From a virus (lineage: Duplodnaviria > Caudoviricetes): DNA of 64,000 bases. The DNA lies in IMG/VR virus record IMGVR_UViG_3300028593_000003, one strand, 5' to 3'. The notes under the pieces are model-generated. The model did no database searches. It worked only from the letters and a program-made list of their open reading frames with translations, and was not told where the DNA came from. Of the stretch, positions 150-7,775 are shown piece by piece; the stretch's first letter is position 1; every line of letters starts with the position of its first letter. Position numbers and translations under genes: made by a program.

Positions 150-817
150 TTTTGCGCCAAAATCGGCTTCACATATTCCTCAATAACCAGTTTTCTCACC
201 TCAATAAACTCTTCTTTACTTCCAGCAGAAATATCGGTAGGTGAAGAGATGGCGGTAAAGAAAGCATTGGAACAGAGCTGACCGATATAACCGAATTTGT
301 ACATCTTCAGCCACATCGCCCAATCTGACAAGCGGTGTATTCTGATATCCGTCACGAACCCACCTACCCTCTCTATCGCCTCAGATTTGTAAAGACTATT
401 GGACGAAATGTAGTTGTTGTTCATCAGGAAGTTTATGTCGTATATTCTTGGCGGAAAGGTGACATTGATGTAACCTTTGTACTCAAATGGGGAATAGACG
501 AAACCGATGTTACCACCACTTTTTTCTATTGTGGATAACATCTTGTCCAGATAATTTCTACCGAGAATTATGTCACGGTCAAGTATCTGGATGTAAGGTG
601 GGAATGATTTATACTTTTCTTTGTAGGCGTCCAAATTTGCCTGCACATTAGTCGCGTGCTTTCCTTCTCCTTCATAACTTGTCCAGATAATAGGAACCCC
701 GCTTCTTTCCAGAGAAATTTTTGTTTGTTTGAAGATTTGATGCCCCGTAAGTAATGGTGTAACTACCAATATTTGTGCGTTTTTATCTTGTCTTAGGATT
801 TTTAGCATACTTACCAT
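146..817 (-). CDS. Glycosyltransferase family 2-like protein
   Basis: LVVTP N-terminal strand, DRD (DxD) motif, NNYISSNSLY, GGF and SDWAMWL are typical of GT-A enzymes. Confidence 0.75.
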   Translation of the reverse strand: MVSMLKILRQDKNAQILVVTPLLTGHQIFKQTKISLERSGVPIIWTSYEGEGKHATNVQANLDAYKEKYKSFPPYIQILDRDIILGRNYLDKMLSTIEKSGGNIGFVYSPFEYKGYINVTFPPRIYDINFLMNNNYISSNSLYKSEAIERVGGFVTDIRIHRLSDWAMWLKMYKFGYIGQLCSNAFFTAISSPTDISAGSKEEFIEVRKLVIEEYVKPILAQK

Positions 818-1382
818 CTTTATAATGAGGATTGTTTTTACCTATATTCATTATTCTAAGTTTTTCTATTGTTTCTTCTGAATGATGTTTGCCCGCCATC
901 GGGGGAATTTGATTTTTTCTTTTCTTCTTCATTTTTTCTACAGCTATGGGATTTTTCATTGGATTATTTTTCTTCATCCATTCGGAGTGTCCGGGCCGTT
1001 TCTTTCCGAAAAAGGCGTGTCTCTCTTTTCTATAATTTTCCTTCCAAGACTTTCTCATCCTTTTTGCAATTTCTTCGTAATCCATTGGATTACTTTCTCC
1101 GCCATCGGTGAGGTTATATCCATTCGGGGAAATAGAGGAAAATTCTTTTACATAAAATTTTTCAAAATAATCAAGTTCCTCTTTTGTATCACAATCCATC
1201 AATTTATACCATAAAAAATTCTCTTCTCCATATTTTCTGATCGCACAATGAAATGGAAGAAGAGAATCTTTCTGAATAGAGCGGGAATGTTCCAATTTCC
1301 TTTTCTCTAATGTTCTTCTCGTTTGACCAATATAAACTTTACCATTTATTCGGTTGGTAACTCTGTAGATGAGTCCTCGCAT
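783..1382 (-). CDS. GIY-YIG homing endonuclease with NUMOD3-like repeats
   Basis: GLIYRVTNRINGKVYIGQT, catalytic R and E positions, GYNLTDGGE, and C-terminal GKHHSEETIEKLR / NNPHY motifs. Confidence 0.9.
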   Translation of the reverse strand: MRGLIYRVTNRINGKVYIGQTRRTLEKRKLEHSRSIQKDSLLPFHCAIRKYGEENFLWYKLMDCDTKEELDYFEKFYVKEFSSISPNGYNLTDGGESNPMDYEEIAKRMRKSWKENYRKERHAFFGKKRPGHSEWMKKNNPMKNPIAVEKMKKKRKNQIPPMAGKHHSEETIEKLRIMNIGKNNPHYKDGKYAKNPKTR

Positions 1383-3109: not shown

Positions 3110-3969
3110 CCTTCCATCTCCTTTTTTATTACCTCTGCCGCATATTCCATCTTGAACTCTGGATAGAACTTGTCTATCCTGTCATAAATGTGAGCTATGT
3201 ATCCGAGATACACATAATCGTAACTTGAAGTGACAAAAATCATATCACTCAAATTCCTGATTATTGTATCGGAAAACAGAGCGTGGTAGTAACGATGTTC
3301 TTCCGGTAATAATATTATAACATTGTTTTCAAGGATTGTAAAGATGTCAGGATTGAGATATCCTATAGAATAGTCACGGGTTGAACCCAATAAAACCGTA
3401 CATTTCATATCGGAATATTTGATATTCTTGTCAAAAACGACATTCAGGTTGGTATATTCATCCACCTTTTCTTTCGAAATGTTCGAATAATCCGAGTATT
3501 TTGTTGAAGAAGTGGGGTAATTCTTGCCAAATTCCACCAAATACTTCTCAAAAGAGCCCAGTTTATCGAAAATAATACCCTTAAAACCGATTGTAAGGGG
3601 TCGCGGCTCGACTTTATTTAGCTTTAGGGTATCTATCGAGTGTATTTTGGGGCAGTAGTGGGGAAAATAGTGAAAATCGGGCCTGTAATTGACGGCCGGC
3701 TCAAACAAAGACACATTGTATTTCTTTAGCCAGCGGGCTTCATCAGGTCTTATCGCAAGAAATTTGTCAAAAATAATGACACGGGTTTTTTTCTTGAGAT
3801 AAAACTTGAGAACTTCAGTTTGAAGTGCGAAAGGTTTCGGATTTGAGGGATTGTAGGGGATGTATTCAATATAAACGGCGTCACAATCAGAAAAATCGGT
3901 ATCTGATAAGGTGACGCCGTTCAATACTTTGTTAAAAACTGGACTACAGTTTAAGGTAAACAATGTCAT
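3106..3969 (-). CDS. GT-B fold glycosyltransferase-like protein, possibly related to T4 DNA beta-glucosyltransferase
   Basis: The C-terminal TVLLGSTRDYSIGYLNPDIFTILENNVIILLPEEH resembles the nucleotide-sugar-binding segment of T4 BGT as I recall it. The match is distant. Confidence 0.4.
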   Translation of the reverse strand: MTLFTLNCSPVFNKVLNGVTLSDTDFSDCDAVYIEYIPYNPSNPKPFALQTEVLKFYLKKKTRVIIFDKFLAIRPDEARWLKKYNVSLFEPAVNYRPDFHYFPHYCPKIHSIDTLKLNKVEPRPLTIGFKGIIFDKLGSFEKYLVEFGKNYPTSSTKYSDYSNISKEKVDEYTNLNVVFDKNIKYSDMKCTVLLGSTRDYSIGYLNPDIFTILENNVIILLPEEHRYYHALFSDTIIRNLSDMIFVTSSYDYVYLGYIAHIYDRIDKFYPEFKMEYAAEVIKKEMEG

Positions 3970-5302
3970 TATGGATATTTTTTACAAACTCCTTTTCATA
4001 CTCTATGATGTAGGAGACTACCGCTTCGGAGAAGCCGTCAATATGAACCCAATCACCATAACCCACACCATTACGGTATGAAGCCACATTGATGAGGTAA
4101 TACTGTGCTTCTGGCAGTTTGTTTGGGATCTCGTCGTGAATTTGTTCATCGGTGATGACGATCAGACGATCAAACTTCTCCCTTTCAACAATCGCTTTGA
4201 TTGCTCTACCGAGCCAAGTTCCACCGTGAGGCTGAGAACGAGAAATAGCATTGGCCAAATTAAATCCACGGTGAGCATCGGCAATTTTTCTCACATCTGT
4301 AGAGAATGAGTACACGGAAACATCCTCACAGATTTCTCTTGCGATGAGAGCAACACCATTAGCGGCGTCAATCCTCGTCATATCGGACTTGTCAGAAAGA
4401 GCCATATCCATAGAACCGGAAACATCCACAAGAATTATTGTCTTACCTTCCAAGGTGTCAAGGTTCCTGATGGACTTGAACATCAGGGTTTCAAGCTGGT
4501 TCTTGAACTTTGGAGCATATTTTACTGCCGCAATAAATCTGAAAGGGAGAACCCTGTCAGTTTTCATATTTTCAAGACCACGAAGAATGATGTTCTCATC
4601 CACATTTGCCTGGGTCATATTACGAAGGTTCCTCAAGAGTGCCAGAGCACCAAGGCGGTTCTCCATAATAAGCTCTTCCCAAACAGCTTTCTTGTCCTTA
4701 CCGGCAGAAAGCCCCGTTTCCCAAGTTTTTGGGATTTCCAATTTGTTGTCAATAAGTTTCTTCCAGACATCAGCCTGTGAAGCATTGAGAGGTTTCGCGT
4801 GAGAAAGAAAAAGAACATCTCTCAATTTTACCGAATAGTCACGGTTATATTTGGCGAGCTGGTACTCGTCAAATTTCGTGAAGGCTTTAGCCAGACCTTT
4901 CTTTACCTGTGCGGCAAGAGGGGTCTTACCATCTTTCCAGTAGAGAGAAAGGAACTCCGCCAACTCGTCAGGACGCTGGATTATCCTTCCCAATGTCTTT
5001 GCCACATATTTCCTATGGTCAATATGGCGTACCATTCCCGTAACAAGAAGAAGAGGAACGTGACGCAAATTCATCCTCTCTCTTGCCTCGACAGCAAGAT
5101 TTGCCACGGTCTTACCATTGACTTGTGGAATAGTTGCGAGTATCCTGTCTGCAACGGATGCTCCGTCCTCATAAAAGGACTTTTCCCAAAGCAAGCAGGA
5201 CATCGTTGAACGTCTGAGGATTTGCTCAGGTGTGAGAACCTTTGCAGAACCACCCTCATAGGTTTTAGGAACACGGTTTTTGAAGGAATTATATTTCGCC
5301 AT
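3944..5302 (-). CDS. rsr: Ro60/Rsr TROVE-domain RNA-binding protein
   Basis: TYEGG, SCLLWEKSFYE, LRHVP, QRPDEL, FDEYQLAKYNR, LRDVLFLSHAKP, TWET, ALLRNLRN, VLPFRF, and a C-terminal VWA (DVSGSM, GGT, ITDEQ). AGGAGG RBS at 5311-5316. Confidence 0.97.
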   Translation of the reverse strand: MAKYNSFKNRVPKTYEGGSAKVLTPEQILRRSTMSCLLWEKSFYEDGASVADRILATIPQVNGKTVANLAVEARERMNLRHVPLLLVTGMVRHIDHRKYVAKTLGRIIQRPDELAEFLSLYWKDGKTPLAAQVKKGLAKAFTKFDEYQLAKYNRDYSVKLRDVLFLSHAKPLNASQADVWKKLIDNKLEIPKTWETGLSAGKDKKAVWEELIMENRLGALALLRNLRNMTQANVDENIILRGLENMKTDRVLPFRFIAAVKYAPKFKNQLETLMFKSIRNLDTLEGKTIILVDVSGSMDMALSDKSDMTRIDAANGVALIAREICEDVSVYSFSTDVRKIADAHRGFNLANAISRSQPHGGTWLGRAIKAIVEREKFDRLIVITDEQIHDEIPNKLPEAQYYLINVASYRNGVGYGDWVHIDGFSEAVVSYIIEYEKEFVKNIHNDIVYLKL

Positions 5303-5331
5303 TCTACCAACCTCCTACAAATTATTTTTAA

Positions 5332-5433
5332 ATAACGGGGAACTTGCGAAACCGGAAATTCGGTGGACTTTCACCACCGTGTCGTTGATCACCTAGCATG
5401 GTCGAAGTAACCGACTTCTATCGCCACCGTTAT
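5332..5433 (-). ncRNA. Y RNA-like ncRNA unit 1 (102 nt, small cargo with hairpin CGGUGG-UGAAAGU-CCACCG)
   Basis: Terminal stem AUAACGG/CCGUUAU, conserved GGUGGCG and GUUCCCC, upper stem GAAGUCGG/CCGGUUUC, then UUACUUCG. Adjacent to rsr. Confidence 0.8.
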
Positions 5434-5442
5434 ATTCTGAAA

Positions 5443-5579
5443 AGCGGGGAACAGCCAAACAGAGACTTATATATCCATTTGCTCTGCCATTGAGCTACCG
5501 TCCATTTGGGTTGGACGGGTTAGAATCGAACTAACAACCTAATGGTTCCGACGAAGTAACTCTATTTTACGCCACCGCT
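5443..5579 (-). ncRNA. yrlA: YrlA-type Y RNA unit 2 (circularly permuted tRNA mimic)
   Basis: Same scaffold. Cargo is CCAUU, T-arm GUUAG-UUCGAUU-CUAAC, loop-closed acceptor stem CCGUCCA/UGGACGG, UA, D-arm GCUC-AAUGGCA-GAGC, AAUGG. This T-acceptor-D order is that of YrlA. Confidence 0.92.
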
Positions 5580-5588
5580 CATATTCGA

Positions 5589-5725
5589 ATGTTGGGGAAC
5601 AATTGTAAACGGCTCTTTTAGGGGTGTTTTCTTCTTCTGGAAAAAACCAATCGAATATTCAGCCCCTCGTTTTCAATTTAGGGAAATTGATTAACCGAAG
5701 TATCCGAATACCGCACCACCAACAT
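5589..5725 (-). ncRNA. Y RNA-like ncRNA unit 3 (137 nt, non-tRNA cargo)
   Basis: Terminal stem AUGUUGG/CCAACAU, GGUGGUG, upper stem GUAUUCGG/CCGUUUAC, AUACUUCG, GUUCCCC. Internal UCAAUUU/AAAUUGA and AGGGG/CCCCU helices. Confidence 0.8.
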
Positions 5726-5734
5726 AAATTTTCA

Positions 5735-5987
5735 TTCATCGGGGAACAGATGGAAATGGGGTGGGGATTAGCAATCCCCGAAAGAACATTTACCTCATCC
5801 TGTTCTTCCCACACCGTAAAAGGAACTACTTGCCCAATTTATTTTGTTCCTGTATGTGAGAACGGCTCCAATGAGGGCTTCGGCCCGTAAAGGTCGAATG
5901 TCTGAGCCGCACCATAACCGTGATTATGGTTCGGGCACCCATAATAGTCATCTGTACGAAGTAACCACTTCCGACGCCACCGATGAA
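5735..5987 (-). ncRNA. Y RNA-like ncRNA unit 4 (253 nt, large multi-hairpin cargo)
   Basis: Terminal stem UUCAUCGG/CCGAUGAA, GGUGGCG, upper stem GGAAGUGG/CCAUUUCC, UUACUUCG, GUUCCCC, and at least six internal helices. Confidence 0.8.
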
Positions 5988-6006
5988 AATATCAAAGAAC
6001 TATGTT

Positions 6007-6035
6007 ATAATAACATATTTACTTATAAATGTAAA
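6007..6035 (-). promoter_or_regulatory. Sigma70-type (early) promoter for the Y RNA array and rsr operon
   Basis: TTTACA-17 nt-TATTAT with an extended -10 TG, about 20 nt upstream of unit 4. Confidence 0.75.
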
Positions 6036-6039
6036 CAAA

Positions 6040-6360
6040 TTATTTTCTTTTCAATGAAGATTTCTTGGATTTTTCTTCAACTGCCTGTTTTTCTTCAGTT
6101 ATTGGTGCGCCCACCTTCTCGTCAGAGGTTTTTGTACCTACTGTTTTGTCAACAATCCAGTATCTTACCTCGTCAGATATGGCGTCCACTCTTGAAGCCA
6201 GACCGGAAGAAATAACCCGATGATTTGGGCCTACCCTTCTTATAAGGGTGTTTATAGCCTCTTCGTGTGACCACGAAACGACAAAGGCCGTCCACATTGA
6301 CATATCACGGAGTAATTCGTATTCAATACGAAATACCGACATATTTTTCTTCTCACCCAT
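6040..6360 (-). CDS. Hypothetical protein
   Basis: 106-aa ORF in operon context. Confidence 0.65.
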   Translation of the reverse strand: MGEKKNMSVFRIEYELLRDMSMWTAFVVSWSHEEAINTLIRRVGPNHRVISSGLASRVDAISDEVRYWIVDKTVGTKTSDEKVGAPITEEKQAVEEKSKKSSLKRK

Positions 6361-6365
6361 ACTGC

Positions 6366-6566
6366 TTATTCCTCCATTTTTTCTATCACAGGTATATATT
6401 CAATTTTCTTGTCGCCCTTGATTTCAATTATCTTGAAATAGGTAATCAAGTCTCCGGGCTTTTTTGTCGCCTTCTGAGCTATAACAGATTTGCCCTCAAG
6501 AAAACATTCGCCCACTATATAATCCTTTGGGCCTTCTGGAAGTTCGTGAAAATCTTTCTCTCTCAT
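6366..6566 (-). CDS. Hypothetical protein
   Basis: 66-aa ORF with a GAGG RBS. Confidence 0.6.
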   Translation of the reverse strand: MREKDFHELPEGPKDYIVGECFLEGKSVIAQKATKKPGDLITYFKIIEIKGDKKIEYIPVIEKMEE

Positions 6567-6671: not shown

Positions 6672-7775
6672 TTACTTTTTTTTCCTCTTTCTATTATTAC
6701 CATTGATTTCTTCTTCATCGGCAACGGTTTCAAGTTCCGCTTCTGCTTCCTCGACTGCCCTATTGATGGCTGAATAACCAGTTTGTTTCAACCATTCATT
6801 GAACTTTGAGAGGAGCTGGGGATATTTACCGATGTTGGCTTCCGCTTTATCCCAACCGACACCTAGCTTTTCTTCTTTCTTCCCGTTGATAACTGTATAT
6901 GTCTTGCCCTCTTCTTTCACAAAACCGGCATTGATGAGATGTGTCAACAATCCAGCATACGGATTGATACCGTTGATGTAATCAATACTCACCGTCGCGT
7001 TTTGGAAAGGTGGATACATTCTGTTCTTGATTGTAATCGCTGTAATTTCGTTTCCGATAATTTTCTTTCCCTCTTTTATCGGGGTCTTTTTCAGGTTGAT
7101 AAGAATAGACGGGAACAATCTCATCGCCTTTCCACCACCAACCTGATCCGGCATCGGGATAACTCCGGGCGAACCATACAAATGACCCGTCACGATACCG
7201 ATGCTTTCCTGTTCAATACAGATATTCAGAAGGAGTTTCAGGAGAGCCCTGATATTCTTCTGCAACAGTCCTTGGTCTGCCTTCGGGTCACCACCGAGAG
7301 CATCCTCGAAGGCTTTATATCTGTCAACTCCACCCATACTGTCTATACCGATAATCAATTTTTTCTGCCCCGTGTCTTTTATCTGGGCAAGGTTACTCCT
7401 GATTTCATTTTCCCAAGGAGTGTATATATAAAGGGTGTTCTCAACATCAAGGCCCCACCTTACACAAAAATCTCTGTCCGTTCCCCTTTCGGTATCAATT
7501 ATAATGGGGTAATAACCTTTCTTCTGGGCTTCAGCCATACAGAGAACCATAAAACTTGATTTCATAGTGTGCTCTGGGCCGACAATACCGACAAGGCTTC
7601 TGTTCGGGATACCTCTCTCAATATCCCCCGATAAAACACGGTTCAAGTCGAGACTTGGAGTTTTGATCCAATCGGACACGGAGGCGATGTCTGACTGTGC
7701 CATAATAGATGCGTGAACACCCTTTACATTTTTGGCTATTCTTTTTTGTAAATCCTCAAAAAAACTTTTATCCAT
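6672..7775 (-). CDS. uvsX: RecA-like recombinase (UvsX)
   Basis: LNRVLSG, Walker A GPEHTMKS, IDTE, Walker B IGIDS, GGGKAM, KNRMYPPF. Confidence 0.93.
   Translation of the reverse strand: MDKSFFEDLQKRIAKNVKGVHASIMAQSDIASVSDWIKTPSLDLNRVLSGDIERGIPNRSLVGIVGPEHTMKSSFMVLCMAEAQKKGYYPIIIDTERGTDRDFCVRWGLDVENTLYIYTPWENEIRSNLAQIKDTGQKKLIIGIDSMGGVDRYKAFEDALGGDPKADQGLLQKNIRALLKLLLNICIEQESIGIVTGHLYGSPGVIPMPDQVGGGKAMRLFPSILINLKKTPIKEGKKIIGNEITAITIKNRMYPPFQNATVSIDYINGINPYAGLLTHLINAGFVKEEGKTYTVINGKKEEKLGVGWDKAEANIGKYPQLLSKFNEWLKQTGYSAINRAVEEAEAELETVADEEEINGNNRKRKKK

What the first reader, a model, noticed from the sequence alone, without database searches (positions are those of the whole stretch)
5332..5987. 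Phage Ro60 with a tandem array of four modular Y RNAs: one scaffold, four different cargos
Seen in the sequence: the apparently empty ~700 bp upstream of rsr is four head-to-tail units (102, 137, 137 and 253 nt) separated by ~9-nt A/U-rich linkers and preceded by one promoter. On the minus strand each reads [stem]-GGUGGYG-N2-3-[8-nt arm]-WUACUUCG-[cargo]-[8-nt arm']-N4-GUUCCCC-[stem']. Both helices differ in sequence between units yet still pair: AUAAC/GUUAU, AGC/GCU, AUGUU/AACAU, UUCAUC/GAUGAA, and GAAGUCGG/CCGGUUUC, AAAUAGAG/CUCUGUUU, GUAUUCGG/CCGUUUAC (two U-U mismatches), GGAAGUGG/CCAUUUCC. That is covariation within one genome. Established: bacterial Ro60 (Rsr) binds the terminal stem of Y RNAs, and the distal domain tethers effectors such as PNPase in Deinococcus; YrlA RNAs occur next to rsr, including in some phages. 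Inference: this phage encodes a Ro60 RNP family in which swappable RNA cargos direct one protein to different partners. Three of the four cargos are not tRNA-like and I do not recognise them.
Basis: partly seen in the sequence, partly recalled or inferred. Interest (0 to 1): 0.92.

Follow-up and report, generated by a model that had tools for sequence, protein, structure and literature searches.

The report
Four-gene Y RNA array beside phage Ro60
A large uncultivated phage carries, just upstream of its Ro60 (Rsr) gene, four back-to-back small RNA genes with one shared predicted docking module and four different "heads"; this is a real, expanded example of the known Ro60-Y RNA partnership, and one head is a conserved ~200-nt structured RNA of unknown kind.

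Summary
On the minus strand, 5332-5987 holds four head-to-tail units of 102, 137, 137 and 253 nt, joined by 9-nt A/U-rich linkers. A sigma-70-like promoter (6035-6007) lies upstream and a TROVE+vWA rsr gene (3944-5302) lies 30 nt downstream.

A covariance model built only from relatives finds units 1-3 and nothing else in the 64 kb. Unit 4 is too long for the model but has both half-sites. Unit 2 is a YrlA-type tRNA mimic, below the Rfam threshold.

Two phage contigs with 80-82% identical Rsr carry the same four units in the same order. The unit-4 head is conserved in one (10 compensatory pairs, a 48-nt near-invariant core) and half deleted in the other. The unit-3 head is specific to this phage. 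The unit-1 hairpin keeps its place but not its sequence.

Arrays of 2-6 or more such units are common in this Rsr clade, including unannotated ones in cultured phages such as CcrColossus. This scan had also noted similar arrays on other DNA.

That the heads recruit different partners remains untested. I class it as a new variant of a known kind, of moderate interest.

The parts
6007..6035 (-). sigma-70-like promoter of the array (TTTACA, 17 nt, TG-n-TATTAT)
   Evidence: 10 of 12 matches, with TG; the position is conserved in L017 and L018
5735..5987 (-). Unit 4: Y RNA scaffold with a ~200-nt multi-helix head
   Evidence: searches show both half-sites. MFE z -2.6. Ortholog L018:575-832: 73 pairs, all paired, 10 compensatory
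5862..5909 (-). 48-nt core of the unit-4 head, 46 of 48 identical in L018
   Evidence: absent from L017
5589..5725 (-). Unit 3: scaffold plus an ~80-nt head that is specific to this phage
   Evidence: R1 39.7 bits. The orthologous units in L018 and L017 are minimal, 70 and 79 nt
5443..5579 (-). Unit 2: YrlA-type Y RNA with a permuted tRNA-like head
   Evidence: R1 44 bits. RF02553 positions 23-85 match 5477-5543 at 33.7 bits, E 2e-5, below the gathering score of 69. Conserved with covariation in L017 and L018
5332..5433 (-). Unit 1: scaffold plus a ~45-nt head ending in a hairpin (5361-5379)
   Evidence: R1 37.9 bits. A hairpin sits at the same place with a different sequence in L017 and L018. 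MFE z only -0.4
5434..5442 (-). 9-nt A/U-rich linker between units 2 and 1 (the others are 5580-5588 and 5726-5734); candidate processing sites
   Evidence: processing is inferred by analogy with M. smegmatis YrlA/YrlB (PMC4201824)
5311..5316 (-). AGGAGG ribosome-binding site of rsr
3944..5302 (-). rsr: phage Ro60 ortholog (TROVE + vWA)
   Evidence: Pfam TROVE E 5e-23. The best solved relative is Thermus phage phiLo Ro60, 9KOP/9L5Y, E 9e-27

Best explanation
The stretch is a polycistronic Y RNA gene array that belongs to the phage's Ro60 (Rsr) gene. One promoter (6035-6007) probably drives a transcript running through four units into rsr. Cleavage in the 9-nt A/U-rich linkers would release four Y RNAs. 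Each closes its 5' and 3' ends into a terminal stem. Above that stem lies an asymmetric internal loop with near-invariant bases (5' UGGYG.., 3' ..GUUCC), then an 8-bp helix, then an invariant UACUUC. By analogy with known Y RNAs this constant module is the Rsr docking site. The distal heads differ. Unit 2 is a permuted tRNA mimic (YrlA type). Unit 1 carries a small hairpin. Unit 3 carries a lineage-specific insert. Unit 4 carries a conserved ~200-nt multi-helix domain. The most likely role is to give one Rsr ring several RNA adaptors or regulators during infection, for example tethering host exoribonucleases such as PNPase or tRNA-handling proteins. Shown here: the anatomy, family membership of the scaffold, structural conservation, and linkage to rsr. 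Inferred: processing, Rsr binding and head function.
For: The 5' composite motif occurs 4 times against 0.00 expected. Model R1 was built from 12 minimal units of other phages. It finds units 2, 3 and 1 at 44, 39.7 and 37.9 bits and nothing else in the window. Both half-sites of unit 4 are present. Across 142 units from 52 sources, all on the rsr strand, the two scaffold helices are 95% paired. All 13 pairs show compensatory changes, against 34-48% paired when the partner is slid. The rsr gene has TROVE and vWA domains and is related to the solved phiLo Ro60, which binds two upstream Y RNA-like RNAs and host PNPase (PMC12135203). The unit-2 head matches YrlA. Two phage contigs with 80-82% identical Rsr keep the same four units in the same order with the same terminal stems. 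Unit 4 and its L018 ortholog share a fold with 10 compensatory pairs and no broken pair. Contigs from 4 RNA libraries of 3 studies hold the array at 99% identity or more, and some bridge the array and rsr. This shows presence in RNA libraries, not transcription. YrlA and YrlB of M. smegmatis are likewise cut from one precursor upstream of rsr (PMC4201824).
Against: There is no direct evidence for discrete RNAs, their ends or their strand, because only assembled contigs were available. None of the four units has the exact published GNCGAAN0-1G motif; they keep only GGYG. The unit-2 YrlA score is well below Rfam's gathering score. The unit-3 head is absent from both close relatives. The unit-4 head is half deleted in L017, although the L017 and L018 rsr genes are 93% identical in DNA. 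Some heads may therefore be dispensable. Unit 1 does not fold better than shuffled sequence (z -0.4). No PNPase, RtcB or other known Ro60 partner gene lies nearby.
Confidence: 0.8

Rival explanations
1. The RNAs are the effectors and Rsr is their chaperone. The heads (a tRNA mimic and other structured domains) would act as decoys or sponges for host RNases, tRNA-targeting defence nucleases or RNA-binding proteins. Rsr binding would mainly stabilise them, rather than the RNAs steering Rsr.
For: About a third of the 142 units in this clade carry tRNA-like or partly tRNA-like heads. Heads turn over quickly between close relatives, as expected under an arms race. Y RNAs need Rsr for stable accumulation in D. 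radiodurans (PMC4201824).
Against: The window's heads show no similarity to E. coli 16S, 23S or 5S rRNA beyond shuffled controls, and no Rfam family matches them. Nearly half of the units in the clade are minimal hairpins with nothing obvious to mimic. No defence or counter-defence context was seen.
Confidence: 0.25
2. The array acts mainly in cis as a structured leader of the rsr mRNA. Rsr would bind the Y-like modules in its own transcript to autoregulate translation or stability, and stand-alone RNAs would be by-products.
For: No terminator lies between unit 1 and rsr, and the rsr ribosome-binding site starts 16 nt after unit 1. RNA-library contigs bridge the array and rsr.
Against: In some relatives the arrays lie downstream of rsr (L009, L016, L023, L061), where they cannot be leaders. 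Known Y RNAs are processed from such precursors and act in trans (PMC4201824).
Confidence: 0.1
3. Only the scaffolds are functional. The heads of units 1 and 3, and perhaps unit 4, would be neutral insertions at a tolerant hairpin tip with no partner of their own.
For: The unit-3 head is absent from both close relatives, where the unit is a minimal hairpin. The unit-1 head has 42-46% identity to its orthologs. L017 lost about 113 nt of the unit-4 head. Units 3 and 1 fold with z of only -1.6 and -0.4.
Against: The unit-4 head keeps a 48-nt core with 46 identical bases, and it has 10 compensatory pairs against L018 while rsr itself is only 79% identical in DNA. The unit-1 hairpin keeps its position despite complete sequence turnover.
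Confidence: 0.3

Closest known systems
YrlA / YrlB of Salmonella Typhimurium and Mycobacterium smegmatis (Chen et al. 2014, PMC4201824; Rfam RF02553)
   Same: They are encoded next to rsr on the same strand, with two or more per locus cut from one precursor. The 5' and 3' ends pair into a stem that carries a G-rich 5' motif. One member has a permuted tRNA-like head with a T arm, a closed acceptor-like stem and a D arm.
   Different: Here there are four units. The scaffold has an extra 8-bp helix and an invariant UACUUC. The exact GNCGAAN0-1G motif is not kept. The RF02553 score is 33.7 against a threshold of 69. Three heads are neither tRNA-like nor simple hairpins.
Thermus phage phiLo Ro60 with Yrl1 and Yrl2 (PMC12135203; PDB 9KOP, 9L5Y)
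   Same: It is a phage Ro60 with Y RNA-like genes directly upstream. It is the closest solved relative of the window's Rsr (E 9e-27). That protein and its RNAs bind host PNPase.
   Different: There are two RNAs rather than four. I did not compare the phiLo RNA sequences with this scaffold. No large structured head is reported.
Deinococcus radiodurans Yrn1/Yrn2 and the Rsr-Y RNA-PNPase (RYPER) machine
   Same: Several small RNAs are encoded upstream of rsr as a polycistronic precursor. The Y RNA has a modular design with a Ro-binding stem and an effector-binding distal part.
   Different: It is a cellular, stress-induced system. The Ro-binding helix resembles metazoan Y RNAs more closely. No PNPase link has been tested here.
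Metazoan Y RNAs (human Y1, Y3, Y4, Y5)
   Same: One Ro60 has four Y RNAs that share a docking stem and differ in their loops.
   Different: There is no sequence relationship. They are separate Pol III genes, not one array. (This comparison rests on my own knowledge.)
Unannotated arrays in cultured phages of the same Rsr clade (Caulobacter phage CcrColossus, Xanthomonas phage Sopo, Brevundimonas phage Gurke)
   Same: Model R1 finds 5 to 8 tandem units directly upstream of rsr on its strand.
   Different: Their Rsr is only about 48-51% identical. None of their units matches the unit-4 head. Some are annotated as tRNA genes or terminators in the records.

Membership tests
Bacterial/phage Y RNA (YrlA/YrlB sense of Chen et al. 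2014) | Encoded within about 2-4 kb of a Ro60/Rsr gene, on the same strand | tested here: met
   Unit 1 ends 30 nt upstream of the rsr start, and all units are on the minus strand like rsr
Bacterial/phage Y RNA (YrlA/YrlB sense of Chen et al. 2014) | 5' and 3' ends pair into a stem that carries the candidate Ro-binding site | tested here: met
   All four units have a terminal stem and an 8-bp helix. The family shows 95% pairing, and 13 of 13 pairs have compensatory changes
Bacterial/phage Y RNA (YrlA/YrlB sense of Chen et al. 2014) | GNCGAAN0-1G motif near the 5' end | tested here: inconclusive
   The clade consensus is UGGYGWAG, and many relatives have an exact GGCGAAG. The window units read GGCGAUAG, GGCGUAAA, GGUGCGGU and GGCGUCGG, so only the GGYG part is kept
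Bacterial/phage Y RNA (YrlA/YrlB sense of Chen et al. 2014) | Bound by Rsr, and stabilised by it | not testable with these tools
   Needs EMSA, RIP or northern blots in an rsr mutant
Bacterial/phage Y RNA (YrlA/YrlB sense of Chen et al. 2014) | Accumulates as a discrete small RNA | tested here: inconclusive
   The array is present in contigs of 4 RNA libraries, but contigs cannot show ends, strand or level
YrlA (Rfam RF02553) | tRNA-like head: T arm, closed acceptor-like stem, D arm | tested here: met
   Met by unit 2 only. Positions 5477-5543 match model positions 23-85 at E 2.2e-5. The feature is conserved with covariation in L017 and L018. Units 1, 3 and 4 lack it
YrlA (Rfam RF02553) | Score at or above the curated gathering threshold (69 bits) | tested here: not met
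   The score is 33.7 bits, and no family reaches gathering in the window. Relatives also score 35-40 bits
Ro60 / Rsr protein | TROVE (HEAT-repeat ring) domain followed by a vWA domain | tested here: met
   TROVE E 5e-23, above its cutoff. VWA_2 and vWA_Ro60 are weak and just below their cutoffs. The full-length match to phiLo Ro60 covers residues 12-433

The most novel reading that the evidence does not exclude
The unit-4 head (5755-5956, with its near-invariant 48-nt core at 5862-5909) is a new class of structured RNA domain. It could be a specific protein- or RNA-recognition module, or a catalytic or ligand-binding fold, that a Y RNA scaffold delivers to the Ro60 ring. On this reading, phage Y RNA arrays are exchangeable adaptor libraries that retarget one ring protein to different substrates or host factors.
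Probability: 0.2. Interest if true: 0.8.

Novelty: new variant of a known kind. Interest (0 to 1): 0.5.

Why it matters
What the distal domains of bacterial and phage Y RNAs do is still largely open. Only the PNPase tether and the tRNA-like module have been studied. This locus offers one Ro60 protein and four natural RNAs that share a docking module but differ in their heads, with orthologous arrays in which heads were gained, lost or resized. That makes a compact test set for pull-downs and binding assays.

More broadly, the scaffold model built here shows that multi-unit arrays are the rule in this Rsr clade. Of 52 sources with a hit, 45 have two or more units. The arrays also sit unannotated in cultured phages that can be worked with. 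The standard Rfam model misses them, so they are absent from genome annotations.

Tried and rejected
- **Rfam, gathering thresholds:** no hit on the whole window.
- **Rfam, permissive scans:** scans of the array and of the unit-4 head alone, here and in L018, gave only the sub-threshold YrlA and tRNA hits on unit 2 plus chance snoRNA-type hits.
- **ARAGORN:** no tRNA or tmRNA in the window.
- **GenBank phages:** no DNA match for 3900-6400.
- **rRNA mimicry (a lead from an earlier scan note on another phage):** the window's heads do not resemble E. coli 16S, 23S or 5S rRNA beyond shuffled controls. The one marginal match (L018 unit 4 against 16S near 1009-1034, score 26 versus a shuffle maximum of 25) lies in a segment that the consensus fold pairs internally. 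I rejected it.
- **More orthologs of unit 4:** the exact core motif and the unit-4 5' scaffold were absent from IMG/VR and from GTDB genomes. No look-alike was found in the scan's own index.
- **The look-up of encoding contigs:** The close relatives were reached through the metagenome scan instead.
- **Model R1 on unit 4:** it cannot score the unit as a whole because the head is too long.
- **Sequencing runs:** in run X18 the only contigs over the array are 5337-5728 and 5720-5989. Their outer ends lie within 5 nt of the predicted array ends, and rsr and the upstream gene have no cover there. One run, contigs only and missing cover cannot count as evidence for RNA ends or abundance.
- **Adapter-joined contig ends at 5848 and 5866:** these were not interpretable.
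- **A short ORF starting in the unit-4 head (AUG after GAGG):** not conserved in length (17, 6 and 6 codons), and its upstream purine run pairs with the core in the consensus fold. Rejected.
- **The conserved neighbours (287-aa and 106-aa proteins):** they have no family, PDB or informative atlas match and give no functional hint.

Full report
**Observation.** There are four units:
- U4 at 5735-5987 (253 nt)
- U3 at 5589-5725 (137 nt)
- U2 at 5443-5579 (137 nt)
- U1 at 5332-5433 (102 nt)

Three 9-nt A/U-rich linkers separate them. Each unit reads: terminal stem, GGUGGYG, 2-3 nt, 8-nt arm, WUACUUCG, head, complementary arm, 4 nt, GUUCCCC, terminal stem. The composite 5' motif occurs four times in the 64 kb, all here, against 0.00 in shuffles. 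The stems and arms differ in sequence between units and still pair. A sigma-70-like promoter with an extended -10 lies at 6035-6007. The ORF that starts 30 nt after unit 1 (3944-5302) is a TROVE + vWA protein. Its closest solved relative is the Ro60 of Thermus phage phiLo. The window is from a large tailed phage: it encodes a major head protein, a baseplate wedge protein, SbcCD and a RecA/UvsX-like protein.

**Is the scaffold a real family?** I fetched 16 viral contigs and 69 metagenome contigs that encode relatives of this Rsr. Most carry similar units next to rsr. From 12 minimal units of other phages, none from the window, I built covariance model R1 with two helices. In that seed 93.8% of cells pair and 13 of 14 pairs show compensatory changes. 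R1 finds units 2, 3 and 1 of the window at 44, 39.7 and 37.9 bits (E 1e-9 to 1e-7) and nothing else in the 64 kb. Unit 4 exceeds the length the model can span, but both halves are present.

Over 69 non-redundant sources R1 gives 142 hits, all on the rsr strand. Pairing is 95%, all 13 pairs have compensatory changes, and slid controls give 34-48%. The near-invariant bases are UGGYG.A.G on the 5' side, UACUUC after the second helix, and C.G...U.GUUCC on the 3' side. Because the helices covary while these bases do not, I infer that they form the recognition surface. This is inference, not a test.

**How unusual is a four-unit array?** It is not unusual in this clade. Of 52 sources with hits, 45 have two or more units, 27 have three or more, and 11 have four to six. 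Long units are missed, so these counts are minima. A rough motif-based sort of the heads gives 68 minimal hairpins, 51 tRNA-like or partly tRNA-like, and 23 other long heads. Cultured phages of the same Rsr clade carry unannotated arrays: CcrColossus has 7-8 units, Xanthomonas phage Sopo has 5 and Brevundimonas phage Gurke has 5. What stands out here is that three of the four heads belong to the rarer "other" class, and that unit 4 is among the longest units seen.

**Orthologous arrays.** Two contigs encode Rsr proteins that are 82% (L018) and 80% (L017) identical to the window's. Both have the same promoter position and the same four units in the same order with the same terminal stems. Scaffolds are 74-94% identical. 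The heads behave differently:
- **Unit 2.** The tRNA-like head is conserved (73-81% identity), with compensatory changes in the T arm and the acceptor-like stem. Its 7-bp closed acceptor-like stem recalls M. smegmatis YrlA, which RNase P cleaves (PMC4201824).
- **Unit 4.** Its head is 76% identical to that of L018 and includes a 48-nt stretch (5862-5909) with 46 identical bases. A consensus fold has 73 pairs, every one formed in both sequences. Ten pairs changed on both sides, spread over four helices, and slid controls give 41-64% pairing. A pseudoknot between a 5' segment and a hairpin loop is compatible with the data, and matching indels lengthen it by 2 bp in L018, but it is not proven. 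With two sequences, and a structure derived from those same sequences, this is supportive only. MFE z-scores are -2.6 (window) and -3.9 (L018).
- **Unit 4 in L017.** L017 lacks about 113 nt of this head, including the core, although its rsr is 93% identical in DNA to that of L018.
- **Unit 3.** It is a minimal hairpin (70 and 79 nt) in both relatives, so the window's ~80-nt head is a lineage-specific gain.
- **Unit 1.** It keeps a hairpin just before the 3' arm in all three, with unrelated stem sequences.

**What the heads are.** Unit 2 matches Rfam YrlA over the tRNA-like part only (33.7 bits, E 2e-5, gathering score 69). Relatives also stay below threshold. Rfam's alignment mis-registers the stem, which shows that this clade's docking module differs from the seed. 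No Rfam family matches the other heads, even in permissive scans. They do not resemble E. coli rRNA beyond chance, they are not repeated elsewhere in the window, and the unit-4 core was not found in IMG/VR or GTDB genomes. Their identity is unknown.

**Expression.** The array sequence is present at 99% identity or more in contigs of four RNA libraries from activated sludge, from three studies. Some contigs bridge the array and rsr. Contigs cannot show transcription, strand, ends or level, so expression is likely but not shown.

**Mechanism.** The best-supported reading is a Y RNA operon. One promoter drives four Y RNAs that are processed at the linkers, and each docks on phage Rsr through the constant module. 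The heads would act as adaptors or regulators.
- **Established elsewhere:** Y RNAs bind Ro60 through the stem formed by their ends. YrlA and YrlB are cut from one precursor upstream of rsr. Yrn1 and YrlA tether PNPase (PMC4201824). The phage phiLo Ro60 binds two upstream Y-like RNAs and host PNPase (PMC12135203). In Listeria phage CKA15, three abundant RNAs upstream of an Rsr-like gene were suggested to be Y RNAs (PMC12282133).
- **Inferred here:** processing, binding, and any partner of the heads.
- **Rivals:** the RNAs as decoys stabilised by Rsr, a cis-acting leader of rsr, and neutral head insertions. The evidence for and against each is given under the rival explanations.

**Novelty and verdict.** The partnership, its modular logic and its presence in phages are all known. 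What I did not find described in the searched literature is threefold: this scaffold subfamily, the frequency and size of the arrays, and large non-tRNA heads such as that of unit 4. This scan has noted similar arrays on other DNA. My own model confirms that they are common. I class the finding as a new variant of a known kind, real and well supported in anatomy, with head function open.

Noticed in passing
window 7433-7719: Three RNA libraries each give a short contig of about 230-290 nt with nearly the same ends inside the RecA/UvsX-like ORF (6672-7775), at higher depth than their neighbours. Neither strand folds better than shuffles. It could be a stretch shared by strains that collapses in assembly, or a stable RNA fragment.
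   Followed up: partly
L017:2676-2883: The closest relative has an extra ~200-nt non-coding element between units 2 and 1. It contains a GATGGTGTAG motif but no UACUUCG, and model R1 does not find it. It may be a fifth, aberrant unit or another RNA.
   Followed up: no
L087:1670-1832 (CcrColossus) and L089:2293-2425 (Gurke): Genes annotated as tRNA-Gln and tRNA-Ser in the GenBank records lie inside units that carry the Y RNA scaffold. They may be YrlA-type tRNA mimics annotated as tRNAs.
   Followed up: partly
L010:3600-3860: This array contains what look like half units: a D-arm segment without a 5' scaffold, and a 5' scaffold with a T arm that runs straight into the next unit. This suggests recombination between units.
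   Followed up: no
window 5848 and 5866: Contigs of two RNA libraries end here joined to Illumina adapter sequence, next to the conserved core of the unit-4 head. This could mark frequent fragment ends or be an assembly artefact.
   Followed up: no
window 783-1382: A GIY-YIG / NUMOD3 homing-endonuclease-like ORF lies about 2.5 kb downstream of rsr.
   Followed up: no
L009, L016, L023, L061: In some relatives the Y RNA units lie downstream of rsr rather than upstream, so the gene order of the module is not fixed.
   Followed up: no
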